Part shown: piece after piece, positions 8,377 to 62,751 of the stretch
Numbering within the stretch: position 1 is the first letter of the stretch
Layout of the letters: each line of letters begins with the position of its first letter
Assembly (NCBI GenBank): GCA_964016885.1
Contig: OZ024761.1
Location: forward strand, 5,208,001 to 5,272,000
Source of the DNA: Eledone cirrhosa
Taxonomy: Eukaryota
Reading direction: 5' to 3'
Length of the DNA: 64,000 nt
Program-made: the position numbers and the translations under genes
Notes under the pieces: model-generated
What the model was told of the DNA's origin: nothing
The model's database searches: none
The model's input: only the letters and a program-made list of their open reading frames with translations

Positions 8377-8433
<57 letters not shown>

Positions 8434-11400
8434 TCAATTTAAAGAAAATAAATACTAAGGTATATTTACATATTAGTGCATTTCTATTGAGAATATAGTT
8501 ATATAACCATAAGAAGATACTTACGCATGGGACTTCTAGTGTATTGAGGGTGGACCCTCCAACTAGAAGCTGCTAAAAAGTATTTGCCTCTCCTATTATT
8601 GTGATTTGTACCAATATTTACATCAATTGAATTTACTCCACCTCCACTGAAACAATGACACAATAAACATAGATTGTATTTAAGTTTACCTGAAATGTTA
8701 TTTATCTGTGACAGAACATATGACAATGTTCTATAGACATAAGTCTAATGTACAGTAGTAACTCAGTAAACTGGGATAAGACTTCCTCTAATACCAGGTC
8801 TATGTCAAGTTAGACAAGAACTTCTTGAACTAGACAATGTTCTATAGACATAAGTCTAATGTACAGTAGTAACTCAGTAAACTGGGATAAGTCTTGATCT
8901 ATTACCAGGTCTATGTCAAGTTAGACAAGAACCTCTTGAACTAAACAATCTTCTATAGACAGAAGTCTAATGTACAATAGTAACTTAGTAAACTGGGATA
9001 AGTCTTGATCTATTACCAGGTCTATGTCAAGTTAGACAAGAACTTCTTGAACTAGACAATGTTCTATAGACATAAGTCTAATGTACAATAGTAACTTAGT
9101 AAACTGGGATAAGTCTTGGTCTAATACCAGGTCTATGTCAAGTTAGACAAGAACTTCTTGAACTAGACAATGTTCTATAGACATAAGTCTAATGTACAGT
9201 AGTAACTCAGTAAACTGGGATAAGTCTTGATCTATTACCAGGTCTATGTCAAGTTAGACAAGAACCTCTTGAACTAAACAATCTTCTATAGACAGAAGTC
9301 TAATGTACAATAGTAACTTAGTAAACTGGGATAAGTCTTGATCTATTACCAGGTCTATGTCAAGTTAGACAAGAACTTCTTGAACTAGACAATGTTCTAT
9401 AGACATAAGTCTAATGTACAATAGTAACTTAGTAAACTGGGATAAGTCTTGGTCTAATACCAGGTCTATGTCAAGTTAGACAAGAACTTCTTGAACTAGA
9501 CAATGTTCTATAGACAGAAGTCTAATGTACAGTAGTAGCTTAGTAAACTGGGATAAGACTTCCTCTAATACTAGGTCTATGTCAACTTAGTCAAGTACCC
9601 CTTGAACTAGACAATGTTCTATAGACAGAAGTCTAATGTACAGTAGTAACTTAGTAAACTGGGATAAGACTTCCTCTAATACCAGTTCTATGTCAAGTTA
9701 GACAAGAACCTCTTGAACTAGACAATGTTCTATGGACATAAGTCTAATGTACATTAGTAACTTAGTAAACTGGGATAAGACTTCCTCTAATACCAGGTCT
9801 ATGTCAAGTTAGACAAGAACCTCTTGAACTAAACAATGTTCTATAGACAGAAGTCTAATGTACATTAGTAACTTAGTAAACTGGGATAAGACTTGATCTA
9901 ATACCAGGTCTATGTCTAGTTAGACAAGAACCTCTTGAACTAGACAATGTTCTATAGACAGAAGTCTAATGTACAATAGTAACTTAGTAAACTGGGATAA
10001 GACTTCCTCTAATACCAGGTCTATGTCTAGTTAGACAAGAACCTCTTGAACTAGACAATGTTCTATAGACAGAAGTCTAATGTACAATAGTAACTTAGTA
10101 AACTGGGATAAGACTTGATCTAATACCAGGTCTATGTCTAGTTAGACAAGAACCTCTTGAACTAAACAATCTTCTATAGACCGAAGTCTAATGTACAGTA
10201 GTAACTTAGTAAACTGGGATAAGTCTTGGTCTAATACCAGGTCTATGTCTAGTTAGACAAGAAGCTCTTGAACTAGACAATGTTCTATAGACATAAGTCT
10301 AATGTACAGTAGTAACTTAGTAAACTGGGATAAGACTTGGTCTAATACCAGGTTTATGTCAAGTTAGACAAGAACTTCTTGAACTAGACAATGTTCTATA
10401 GACAGAAGTCTAATGTACAGTAGTAACTTAGTAAACTGAGATAAGTCTTGATCTAATACCAGGTCTATGTCTAGTATAATAATTGTTTCTACTTTTGGCA
10501 CAAGGCCAGCAATTACCCCAGTGCATTACTGGTACTTTATTTTATCAATCACGTAAGGATGAAAGGCACAGATAACCTTGGCAGGGTTTGAACTCAGAAC
10601 ATAAAGGGCCATAACTCCATGCTGCAAAGCATGGTGTCTGACAACAATACTGCCAATCCACTGCCCTTATCAAAGTTTGTCAGCTATGATAGATCTTAAG
10701 TATGTCATAGTCTAGCAATAGATTATCAAATAAATTAGACATATCTGTGGAATATTAAAGATGGAGAAGTGTTGTTAAAGGAAAGACAATAAAAATATAG
10801 AAATATTTCTTACAAGCAATGGGCAGCGGTCAAGACATGTTGGTTGTCCAGTAAAGTACCACCACATCCAAAAGTACCCTTATTAGTATGAAGGATCAAA
10901 TGTACGATTGATGGGAACTGACAATCTCTTGCTGGAGAACCATCTACAATCTGTGTCTCTGGGGCTAGAAATAAGAACATAGATTAGGTGTAGTGTTGTG
11001 TTGGTGGTGGTGTAGTGGTGTTGTAGTGGTGGTGTAGTGGGGTGGTGGTGGTGTAGTGGTATAGTATAGCGGTGGTGTGGCGTTGGTGGTGTAGTGGTGG
11101 TGTTGTAGTGGTGTGGTGTAGTGGTGTGGTGGTCGTGTGGTGGTGGTGGTGTAGTGGTGTAGTGGTGGTGTTGTGGTATAGTGGTGGTGTTGTAGTGGTG
11201 TGGTGTAGTTGTAGTGGTGTGTTGTAGTGGTGTAGTGGTGGGGTGGTGGTGGTGTAGTGGTATAGTATAGCGGTGGTGTGGTGATGTGGTGTTGGTGGTG
11301 TAGTGGTGGTGATGTAGTGGTGTGGTGTAGTTGTGCTGTAGTGGTGCTGGGGTGTAGTGGTGTACTGTGGAGGTGGTGGTGGTGTAGTGGTATAGTATAG

Positions 11401-60096: not shown

Positions 60097-62654
60097 ATGT
60101 TCGCTATATTTTGCTTGGCAATCGCTCTTCCTCTCAGCTTTGCTGGTAAACAATCAATACTCTATATTATTGATAATGTTCAATACATTAACACAATTTT
60201 ATATCTAGATTTTAGAGTCAATATTTTATATCAGAAATAAGGAAATATTTCATAGAGTCAGCCTAAAGTATTTAATTGTCTTAAAATAATATCATCAAAC
60301 AGATACAAAATCTCTTCAAGTTCATATCAACACACACCACAACACCACCACTACACCACTACACCACCACCACCACACCACTACACCATACCACTACACC
60401 ACACCACTACAACACCACCACTACACAACTACACCACCAACACCACACCACTACACCACCACTATACTATACCACTACCCCCACCTACTACACCACGACA
60501 ACACACCACTACAACTACACCACATCACTACAACACCACCACCCCACCACTACAACACACCACTACAACACCACCACTATACCACAACACCACCACTACA
60601 CCACTACACCACCACCACCACACGACCACCACACCACTACACCACACCACTACAACACCACCACTACACCACTACACCACCAAAACCACACCACCACACC
60701 ACCGCTATACCACTACACCACCACCACCTCACCAGTACACCACTACACCCCACCACCACTACAGCACAACTACACCACACCACTACAACACCACCACTAC
60801 ACCACCAACACCACATCACCACACCACCGCTATAATATACCACTACACCACCACCACCCCACCACTACAACACCACCACCACTAAACACTACACCACCAC
60901 CACCAACACACCACTACACCCCACCACCACTACAACACCACTACACCACCACCAACACACCACTACACCTAATCTCTGTTCTTATTTCTAGCCCCAGAGA
61001 CACAGATTGTAGATGGTTCTCCAGCAAGAGATTGTCAGTTCCCATCAATCGTACATTTGATCCTTCATACTAATAAGGGTACTTTTGGATGTGGTGGTAC
61101 TTTACTGGACAACCAACATGTCTTGACCGCTGCCCATTGCTTGTAAGAAATATTTCTATATTTTTATTGTCTTTCCTTTAACAACACTTCTCCATCTTTA
61201 ATATTCCACAGATATGTCTAATTTATTTGATAATCTATTGCTAGACTATGACATACTTAAGATCTATCATAGCTGACAAACTTTGATAAGGGCAGTGGAT
61301 TGGCAGTATTGTTGTCAGACACCATGCTTTGCAGCATGGAGTTATGGCCCTTTATGTTCTGAGTTCAAACCCTGCCAAGGTTATCTGTGCCTTTCATCCT
61401 TACGTGATTGATAAAATAAAGTACCAGTAATGCACTGGGGTAATTGCTGGCCTTGTGCCAAAAGTAGAAACAATTATTATACTAGACATAGACCTGGTAT
61501 TAGATCAAGACTTATCTCAGTTTACTAAGTTACTACTGTACATTAGACTTATGTCTATAGAAGATTGTTTAGTTCAAGAAGTTCTTGTCTAACTTGACAT
61601 AGAACTGGTATTAGAGGAAGTCTTATCCCAGTTTACTAAGTTACTACTGTACATTAGACTTCGGTCTATAGAACATTGTCTAGTTCAAGAAGTTCTTGTC
61701 TAACTTGACATAGACCTGGTATTAGATCAAGACTTATCCCAGTTTACTAAGTTACTACTGTACATTAGACTTCTGTCTATAGAACATTGTCTAGTTCAAG
61801 AAGTTCTTGTCTAACTTGACATAGAACTGGTATTAGAGGAAGTCTTATCCCAGTTTACTAAGTTACTACTGTACATTAGACTTATGTCTATAGAACATTG
61901 TCTAGTTCAAGAAGTTCTTGTCTAACTTGACATAGAACTGGTATTAGAGGAAGTCTTATCCCAGTTTACTAAGTTACTACTGTACATTAGACTTCGGTCT
62001 ATAGAACATTGTCTAGTTCAAGAAGTTCTTGTCTAACTTGACATAGACCTGGTATTAGATCAAGACTTATCCCAGTTTACTAAGTTACTACTGTACATTA
62101 GACTTATGTCTATAGAACATTGTTTAGTTCAAGAAGTTCTTGTCTAACTTGACATAGACCTGGTATTAGACCAAGACTTATCCCAGTTTACTAAGTTACT
62201 ATTGTACATTAGACTTATGTCTATAGAACATTGTTTAGTTCAAGGGGTTCTTGACTAAGTTGACATAGACCTGGTAATAGATCAAGACTTATCCCAGTTT
62301 ACTAAGTTACTACTGTACATTAGACTTCTGTCTATAGAACATTGTCTAGTTCAAGAAGTTCTTGTCTAACTTGACATAGACCTGGTATTAGACCAAGACT
62401 TATCCCAGTTTACTAAGTTACTATTGTACATTAGACTTCTGTCTATAGAACATTGTCATATGTTCTGTCACAGATAAATAACATTTCAGGTAAAGTTAAA
62501 TACAATCTATGTTTATTGTGTCATTGTTTCAGTGGAGGTGGAGTAAATTCAATTGATGTAAATATTGGTACAAATCACAATAATAGGAGAGGCAAATACT
62601 TTTTAGCAGCTGCTAGTTGGAGGGTCCACCCTCAATACACTAGAAGTCCCATGC
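60097..62654 (+). CDS. Secreted chymotrypsin-like S1 serine protease, copy D (exons 1-3; remainder outside window)
   Basis: Exons 60097-60145, 60992-61142 and 62533-62654. Same as B except Ser->Ala (LAASSW->LAAASW, nt 62612). Confidence 0.92.
61290..61481 (+). mobile_element. tRNA-derived SINE, copy D intron 2
   Basis: Paralog of 20261-20452. Confidence 0.8.
61482..62456. repeat. 111-bp minisatellite, intron 2 of copy D (~9 units)
   Basis: Same unit as in B. Confidence 0.95.
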
Positions 62655-62751
62655 GTAAGTATCTTCTTATGGTTATATAACTATATTCTCAATAGAAATG
62701 CACTAATATGTAAATATACCTTAGTATATATTTTCTTTAACTTTAAATTGA

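What the first reader, a model, noticed from the sequence alone, without database searches (positions are those of the whole stretch)
8431..62750. Mosaic variant sharing reveals arm-to-arm gene conversion after the tandem duplication
Seen: structural markers group A=C and B=D, as expected from tandem duplication of the palindrome. These are the upstream SINE (B,D only), the 698-bp LINE deletion (A,C only) and the AAACTT/AAAGTT SNP before exon 3. Other markers group A=B versus C=D: the intron-1 SNP near the exon-2 acceptor (10980/19947 vs 52565/60976), a 6-bp TTAAAG duplication plus a SNP in intron 3 (50460-50475 and 62725-62745, absent at 8440-8455 and 21250-21270), and GT-repeat variants (TAGTGTTTAG, GTATATTATAGC) shared only by C and D. 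Inference: short conversion tracts between the arms of each palindrome (concerted evolution).
Basis: partly seen in the sequence, partly recalled or inferred. Interest (0 to 1): 0.75.

Follow-up and report, generated by a model that had tools for sequence, protein, structure and literature searches.

The report
Gene conversion among octopus protease copies
Four nearly identical copies of an octopus-type protease gene, arranged as alternating mirror images, have swapped short patches of DNA with their mirror partners, a well-known process seen here in a new setting.

Summary
The window holds four copies (A-, B+, C-, D+) of a six-exon octopod S1A serine-protease gene. No single tree fits. Recurrent mutation is unlikely (simulated P 1.5e-4 to 5e-3). 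Patchy non-reciprocal conversion between head-to-head arms is the best explanation (about 0.65). Three things are not shown. (1) Timing: exchange postdates the split of the AB and CD lineages, which may predate the duplication or reflect two haplotypes. (2) Pairing: B and C are also inverted neighbours, so a reciprocal B-C exchange gives the same pattern. (3) Read support was untestable. A GENECONV-like run test on 31 SNPs was not significant. The mechanism is known from sex-chromosome palindromes and segmental duplications; my searches found no cephalopod report.

The parts
1..13151 (-). Arm A: protease gene copy, exons 1-5 in window (E1 12162-12210, E2 10814-10964, E3 8525-8646, E4 6886-7020, E5 4284-4432); exon 6 lies outside
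13152..18000 (.). Head-to-head spacer s1: 92 bp unique plus a 60-bp VNTR (79 copies)
18001..29836 (+). Arm B: complete six-exon gene, 765-bp CDS, 254 aa (E1 19260-19308, E2 19963-20113, E3 21060-21181, E4 23773-23907, E5 25153-25301, E6 29487-29645)
29837..37511 (.). Tail-to-tail spacer s2 between B and C, which makes B/C a second palindrome
37512..54635 (-). Arm C: complete gene (E6 37701-37859, E5 45389-45537, E4 46533-46667, E3 50546-50667, E2 52399-52549, E1 53664-53712)
54636..58826 (.). Head-to-head spacer s1': the same 92-bp flank as s1 (no differences), same orientation, 60-bp VNTR (68 copies)
58827..64000 (+). Arm D: exons 1-3 in window (60097-60145, 60992-61142, 62533-62654); runs off the end
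52293..52776 (-). AB|CD patch 1 in C: 484 bp identical to D, covering exon 2, acceptor SNP 52565 and 217 bp (52560-52776) of the GT-repeat end, with a 57-bp length difference from A/B. Partner D 60765-60981; A 10975-11186; B 19741-19952
50446..50475 (-). AB|CD patch 2 in C: 6-bp tandem TTAAAG plus SNP 50472 (D 62728-62746; shorter allele at A 8431-8451 and B 21255-21275). A and B also share a unique interruption of the adjacent AT microsatellite
50743..50853 (.). AB|CD patch 3 (new): terminal 111-bp VNTR unit next to exon 3, five sites within 32 bp (A 8755-8786). The A/B unit type occurs in only 2 of 42 units
54135..54135 (.). AB|CD patch 4 (new): promoter SNP 12635/18819 vs 54135/59662, beside four A-private sites
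8684..8684 (.). AC|BD SNP (8684/21022/50705/62495) lying between AB|CD patches 2 and 3
18092..18448 (.). Insertion upstream of B, shared with D 58918-59265 (AC|BD structural marker)
22079..22776 (+). 698 bp of a decayed non-LTR retroelement in intron 3, present in B (its start also in D) and deleted in A and C
   Evidence: weak RVT_1 match, E 0.028
26121..27262 (+). Intron-5 islands of older arm divergence (B vs A=C at 24 of 944 sites), flanking a roughly 0.9-kb segment that B lacks
29781..29836 (+). Old outer edge of the repeat: 42 of 56 identical to C 37567-37512, next to 522 bp with only 2 substitutions

Best explanation
An old inverted duplication put two protease genes head to head. The unit later appears twice (AB and CD) 41 kb apart, which gives an alternating array in which each inner copy has an inverted partner on both sides. 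Occasionally a break in one arm is repaired from its nearest inverted partner (5.5-13 kb away for the 5' half of the gene) without crossover, copying tens to a few hundred bases. Variants that arose after the AB and CD lineages split thereby became shared within a palindrome, while large indels and the DNA beside them kept the older AC|BD grouping. Shown: the four-gamete conflict, the four patches and the uneven arm divergence. Inferred: non-reciprocal conversion, the partner pairs, and direction. Patch 1 looks like D to C: D continues seamlessly into a repeat block also kept in A, whereas C switches to a different block at 52776. Patch 2 looks like A-B: A and B have no substitution between 8683 and 8143, while C and D differ at 6 sites.
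For: Seven topology switches among 14 ordered informative markers. Two or more AB|CD SNPs by homoplasy have P 1.5e-4 to 5e-3. C and D share a 217-bp exact match at one end of the GT array, while the other end groups B=D (139-bp common end) and A with C. Arm divergence is uneven: A=C vs B differences are 2.5% in two intron-5 blocks and 0.57% elsewhere (12-block heterogeneity Monte-Carlo p 0.0006), and the outer edge is only 75% identical, so the repeat is older than its 0.4-1% identity suggests. B and C differ at 1 of 765 coding bases. Assembly accuracy looks high: 3 of 244 VNTR anchor spacings are off-period. In human Y palindrome P6, conversion outnumbers inversion 56 to 3 (PMC3723533, passages).
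Against: The GENECONV-like permutation on 31 unique-sequence SNPs is not significant for any of 6 pairs (best A-B run of 7, p 0.07). The AB-vs-CD asymmetry that separates conversion from reciprocal exchange is weak: p 0.016, 0.052, 0.135 and 0.056 for four window sizes, the first inflated by microsatellite misalignment; 0 vs 6 (p 0.03) and 0 vs 4 (p 0.125) use post-hoc windows. Two of the four patches lie in or beside fast-mutating repeats. An AC|BD SNP (8684) sits between patches 2 and 3. AD|BC sites also exist (8118, a CpG; a terminal VNTR variant found only in A and D), so exchange is not confined to head-to-head pairs. The intron-5 islands look like transposon copies (partial similarity to each other) and could be divergent for other reasons. 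There is no outgroup and no reads.
Confidence: 0.65

Rival explanations
1. Reciprocal exchange between B and C. They are inverted repeats around spacer s2, so a double crossover, or two inversions with different breakpoints, swaps a segment and turns old AC|BD sites into AB|CD without any A-B or C-D conversion.
For: B 18001-29836 and C 37512-54635 form a palindrome. It needs no new mutation. The GT-array junction in C is also what a swap would leave. B and C are nearly identical around exon 6 (2 of 522) and match closely, in register, over the first four 69-bp units.
Against: Four separate patches need eight crossovers. B-C partners are 29-35 kb apart at these sites, against 5.5-13 kb for A-B and C-D. 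A swap predicts equal A-B and C-D divergence in the patches, but they are lopsided, though weakly. Four A-private sites beside the promoter marker fit one-way transfer into C better.
Confidence: 0.12
2. Assembly artefact: reads from the inverted partner were cross-mapped during error correction or polishing, which created chimeric patches.
For: The copies are about 99% identical, the patches are short, and all three bipartitions occur. No reads could be examined.
Against: Patch 1 includes 57-bp and 8-bp length differences inside a GT-rich repeat, which short-read polishing would not normally rewrite. Multi-kb VNTRs are resolved unit by unit with almost no indel noise. The reading frames of B and C are intact and there is no N in the window. 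Uneven arm divergence supports homogenisation independently of the patches.
Confidence: 0.1
3. AB and CD are two haplotypes of one palindrome placed in tandem by the assembler, or alleles later joined by unequal crossover. Conversion is real but happened between arms within alleles, not after a duplication. This is compatible with the best explanation except for timing and copy number.
For: A-C and B-D differ by 0.65-0.69% in unique sequence, plus VNTR length changes and a 2.35-kb insertion private to C. This is in the range of allelic difference in outbred invertebrates (my own knowledge). The unit's ends lie outside the window.
Against: The sequence is gap-free across s2, and s2 is 7.7 kb of non-palindromic sequence with no match to the unit ends visible here.
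Confidence: 0.2
4. Parallel mutation: slippage and unit shuffling in repeats, plus recurrent point mutation, on one true tree.
For: The 6-bp indel is slippage-type. The VNTR unit type seen in C and D occurs in 6 of 42 units. The lone AD|BC SNP is a CpG transition with simulated chance 2-11%.
Against: The two AB|CD SNPs in unique sequence are non-CpG transversions with P at most 0.005. A 217-bp exact match with several private motifs cannot plausibly arise twice.
Confidence: 0.03

Closest known systems
Arm-to-arm gene conversion in mammalian Y/X palindromes (human P6; PMC3723533, passages seen)
   Same: Inverted arms around a spacer; non-reciprocal transfer inferred from paralogous variants; conversion far commoner than inversion.
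   Different: Here the arms are 12-17 kb and about 99% identical rather than over 99.9%, broken by many indels and VNTRs; visible patches are under 0.5 kb against a mean minimum of about 2 kb; two palindrome types alternate; chromosome type unknown.
Interlocus gene conversion detected as 'reticulate sites' in paralog quartets (Dumont and Eichler, PMC3790853, passages seen)
   Same: Same logic and same test (discordant sites against simulation). That paper also notes that crossover and replication-based repair can mimic the signal, and that power is low above 99% identity.
   Different: One invertebrate locus with four copies instead of a genome-wide human survey.
Conversion blocked by transposon insertions and large indels (Fawcett and Innan review, PMC3924837, passages seen)
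   Same: Older divergence persists beside large indels (intron-5 islands, upstream insertion).
   Different: No sign here of a selected divergence peak in coding sequence.
Drosophila Su(Ste) array with architecture-dependent concerted evolution (bioRxiv 10.64898/2026.06.30.735624; abstract and outline only)
   Same: Higher-order inverted structure is proposed to set which copies homogenise.
   Different: That is a Y-linked piRNA array of many units; this is a four-copy enzyme gene array.
Octopod S1A serine proteases (Argonauta hians, Octopus bimaculoides, O. kaurna, O. sinensis hits; family described as expanded and salivary-gland expressed in PMC7656900, passages seen)
   Same: 254 aa, Pfam Trypsin PF00089, 70-73% identity over the exons to three of the four hits.
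   Different: Expression site untested here; the paper's passages say nothing of tandem arrangement or conversion (0 occurrences of either term).
Concerted evolution of inverted Drosophila trypsin, amylase and Hsp70 gene pairs (recalled, not retrieved; one search did not find such a paper)
   Same: Enzyme or stress genes in inverted pairs homogenised by conversion.
   Different: Recalled lead only; not compared here.

Membership tests
Interlocus (arm-to-arm) gene conversion | Sites incompatible with a single duplication tree, in excess of recurrent mutation | tested here: met
Interlocus (arm-to-arm) gene conversion | Discordant sites clustered in short tracts flanked on both sides by concordant sites | tested here: met
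   Four patches, each bracketed by AC|BD markers
Interlocus (arm-to-arm) gene conversion | Unusually long run of identity between donor and acceptor | tested here: inconclusive
   C=D over 484 bp, but the permutation test on 31 unique-sequence SNPs is not significant
Interlocus (arm-to-arm) gene conversion | Non-reciprocal transfer (not a double crossover) | tested here: inconclusive
   Asymmetry tests are weak; no outgroup
Interlocus (arm-to-arm) gene conversion | Variants confirmed on single molecules or segregating in populations | not testable with these tools
   No reads or eukaryotic assemblies available
Sex-chromosome-type palindrome under strong concerted evolution | Arm identity above 99.9%, and arms closer to each other than to orthologous arms | tested here: not met
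   A-B 0.69%, C-D 0.92%, A-C 0.65%, B-D 0.69%
Sex-chromosome-type palindrome under strong concerted evolution | Location on a non-recombining or sex chromosome | not testable with these tools
   Window origin unknown
Tandem duplication of a palindrome | Two direct copies of arm-spacer-arm with shared structural markers | tested here: met
   About 41-kb offset, identical spacer flank, indels group AC|BD
Tandem duplication of a palindrome | Unit breakpoints located and true copy number four | not testable with these tools
   A and D run off the window; no depth data
S1A (chymotrypsin-fold) serine protease | Pfam Trypsin domain with catalytic His, Asp and Ser motifs in one open frame | tested here: met
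   PF00089 in 4 of 4 exons tested, one just under the curated cut-off; motifs and intact splice sites
Cephalopod posterior-salivary-gland (venom) protease | Expression in the posterior salivary gland | not testable with these tools
   Only sequence similarity to octopod proteins

The most novel reading that the evidence does not exclude
The array is a true alternating double palindrome in which every inner copy has two inverted partners, and partner choice follows distance: the 5' half of the gene is homogenised head to head, the 3' end tail to tail, and divergence accumulates in intron 5, near the point farthest from both spacers. This would keep several identical copies of a highly expressed salivary or venom protease in an octopod, a Y-palindrome-like device outside the sex-chromosome setting. 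Consistent with it: AB|CD patches only in the 5' half, B=C around exon 6, the divergence peak where both partners are 18-23 kb away. Not tested: exons 4-6 of D and exon 6 of A are outside the window.
Probability: 0.2. Interest if true: 0.55.

Novelty: new member of a known kind. Interest (0 to 1): 0.32.

Why it matters
It shows ectopic recombination working at base resolution in a cephalopod protease expansion. Paralog trees and dates for such expansions would then underestimate their age: the repeat has 75%-identical edges and 3% islands but exons that are 99.9% identical. The alternating layout gives a compact natural test of whether distance or orientation decides the conversion partner. 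The process itself is textbook, so the value is as an example and a caution, not as a new mechanism.

Tried and rejected
Single tree: rejected (7 switches among 14 markers). Fold-back re-copying of a whole arm from the spacer outward: rejected, because the markers nearest the spacer are AC|BD. One crossover or inversion: rejected, because each AB|CD patch is flanked by AC|BD on both sides. GENECONV-like run test: no pair significant. AB-vs-CD asymmetry at four window sizes: same direction each time, nominally significant once. Polarising with three other SINE-like copies in the window: B alone keeps the outgroup base at 10572/20355, which would fit transfer into D, but a back-mutation or ectopic SINE conversion in B also fits, so it was not counted. 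54-, 60- and 69-bp VNTR unit comparisons gave no clear extra tract. The hand-entered A-only and C-only totals printed contained a miscount and were not used; one search has the computed values. Pfam found no family in the C-insertion ORF or in 3 of 4 LINE stretches. No eukaryotic genome or read collection was available, so outgroup introns and read support stayed unchecked. Literature: one search returned 0 papers; of 113 papers the 15 listed have no cephalopod mention; of 7, 5 were listed and the one read (PMC6408891, passages) mentions conversion only in passing; searches listed nothing on this locus. Supplements were not examined, and most subscription papers are not in the library.
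Full report
Layout. A self-comparison with tandem repeats masked (56% of the window is masked) shows four copies of one unit: A (minus, 1-13151), B (plus, 18001-29836), C (minus, 37512-54635) and D (plus, 58827 to the end). A/B and C/D are head-to-head palindromes around 60-bp-VNTR spacers whose 92-bp unique flanks are identical and equally oriented. A-C and B-D lie about 41 kb apart.

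The gene. Each unit carries a six-exon gene with canonical splice sites; B and C are complete, with a 765-bp CDS encoding 254 aa. All 4 exons tested match Pfam Trypsin. A search with exon 2 gave 4 hits among 9 candidates, all 254-aa octopod proteins, 52-73% identical over the exons. The residue six before the catalytic serine is Ser, which by standard numbering suggests chymotrypsin-like rather than trypsin-like specificity (my own knowledge). Such proteases dominate posterior-salivary-gland expression in some octopods (PMC7656900, passages); expression here is untested. Coding differences from B are one synonymous change in A, one Ala/Val change in C and one Ser/Ala change in D.

Observation check. 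All named markers are at the stated places. In 2,171 non-repeat four-way columns there are 31 substitutions: 23 private, 5 AC|BD, 2 AB|CD and 1 AD|BC, plus the 6-bp AB|CD indel. The large indels that can be scored in four copies group AC|BD. The named AB|CD markers form two patches. Patch 1: the GT array is a clean mosaic; its exon-2 end is a 217-bp exact C=D match that differs from A/B by 57-bp and 8-bp indels and several SNPs, while its exon-1 end groups B=D and A with C. C and D are identical over 52293-52776. Patch 2: the intron-3 SNP and 6-bp indel. I found two more: a promoter SNP and five sites in the terminal 111-bp VNTR unit. A and B also share an interruption of the intron-3 AT microsatellite that C and D lack.

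Chance. On the tree ((A,C),(B,D)), with branch lengths taken from the data, two or more AB|CD SNPs arise with P 0.00015-0.005 under three rate models, whereas one AD|BC SNP arises with P 0.02-0.11 and is therefore not evidence. The ordered markers switch topology seven times among 14. Against this, a GENECONV-like permutation on the 31 SNPs is not significant for any pair (best p 0.07), and pairwise divergences are nearly star-like: AB 0.69, AC 0.65, AD 0.65, BC 1.06, BD 0.69, CD 0.92%. Homogenisation since the AB/CD split is thus limited to small patches.

Independent sign of older homogenisation. Differences of B from A=C are uneven over 12 blocks (Monte-Carlo p 0.0006): 24 of 944 in two intron-5 blocks flanking a segment B lacks, against 23 of 4,035 elsewhere, a grouping chosen after seeing the data. 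At the outer edge B and C fall abruptly from 2 differences in 522 bp to 42 of 56 identity. The inverted repeat is therefore older than most of its sequence suggests, as expected where large indels interrupt conversion (PMC3924837, passages). The islands look like transposon copies, so other causes are possible.

Mechanism. The best reading is one-way repair from the nearest inverted partner (A-B and C-D homologous sites are 5.5-12.8 kb apart, B-C 29-35 kb). Patch 1 probably went from D to C: after the shared 217 bp, D continues into a block also kept in A, while C switches to a different block. Patch 2 more likely involves A and B, which show no substitution between 8683 and 8143 while C and D differ at six sites; the '6-bp duplication' may then be a deletion in A/B. 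Both directions are inferences without an outgroup.

Rivals. A reciprocal double exchange between B and C gives the same AB|CD pattern from old differences. It needs eight crossovers and predicts symmetric divergence, which is only weakly contradicted; in human P6 conversions outnumber inversions 56 to 3 (PMC3723533, passages). An assembly artefact cannot be excluded without reads, but the VNTRs are resolved with 3 off-period spacings in 244 and patch 1 includes large indels in low-complexity DNA. AB and CD could be alleles or haplotigs (0.65-0.69% apart), which would leave conversion standing but remove 'after the tandem duplication'. The confidences given are not exclusive, since the allele reading is compatible with conversion.

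Known and new. The signal and the test match the quartet method used on human segmental duplications (PMC3790853, passages). Architecture-dependent homogenisation has been proposed for Su(Ste) (abstract only). The locus fails the over-99.9% identity mark of sex-chromosome palindromes. Searches showed no report of conversion in a cephalopod protease array, within a library that lacks most subscription papers; supplements were not read. Verdict: real, most likely gene conversion, a new example of a known process; interest 0.32.

Noticed in passing
window 48049-50400: A 2.35-kb insertion private to C inside the intron-3 AT microsatellite, with 460-bp inverted ends (459 of 469 identical) and an open 179-aa frame at 48625-49161. 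No Pfam hit, but it is feature-similar (0.95) to an Atlas cluster in which 37% carry GIY-YIG. It fits a young 5'-truncated Penelope-like element; inverted ends and (TA)n targeting are described in PMC8557442 (passages).
   Followed up: partly
window 21770-23560 (and A 7150-7960, C, D equivalents): Decayed non-LTR retroelement in intron 3 with RT-like (weak RVT_1, E 0.028) and endonuclease-like stretches; it resembles an R4/Dong-type element by recall only. B has a further 360-bp segment (about 22890-23249) absent from A and C; D has a private 36-bp deletion at 63519.
   Followed up: partly
window 32873-33113 and 34900-35140: Local direct duplication of a SINE-like element plus 55-bp VNTR inside spacer s2 (3 differences in 220 bp), of similar age to the A/C split; a possible trace of the duplication junction.
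   Followed up: partly
window 10382-10475 and 61481-61574; 8118/21617/47764/63064: AD|BC signals: a variant found only in the exon-2-side terminal 111-bp units of A and D (2 of 42 units) with a reciprocal B/C variant, and one CpG transition. They hint at B-C or A-D exchange too.
   Followed up: partly
window 47745-47939 and 12687-12735: Clusters of private substitutions: five in C within 200 bp beside the insertion, four in A within about 45 bp in the promoter. They may be old variants left after conversion of the other copies.
   Followed up: partly
window 50543: C has GTGAGT at the exon-3 donor where the others have GTAAGT; both are acceptable donors.
   Followed up: no
window 4464-6138, 8722-10475, 13244-17997, 28158-29256, 38090-41266, 50743-52060, 54728-58823, 61481-62457: Intronic and spacer minisatellites differ greatly in copy number between copies (54-bp: 31/9/4; 111-bp: 16/5/12/9; 69-bp: 16/46; 60-bp: 79/68), so VNTR turnover is much faster than point mutation.
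   Followed up: partly
window 36137-36633: GC-richer unique stretch in spacer s2 that looks like another retroelement fragment; not identified.
   Followed up: no
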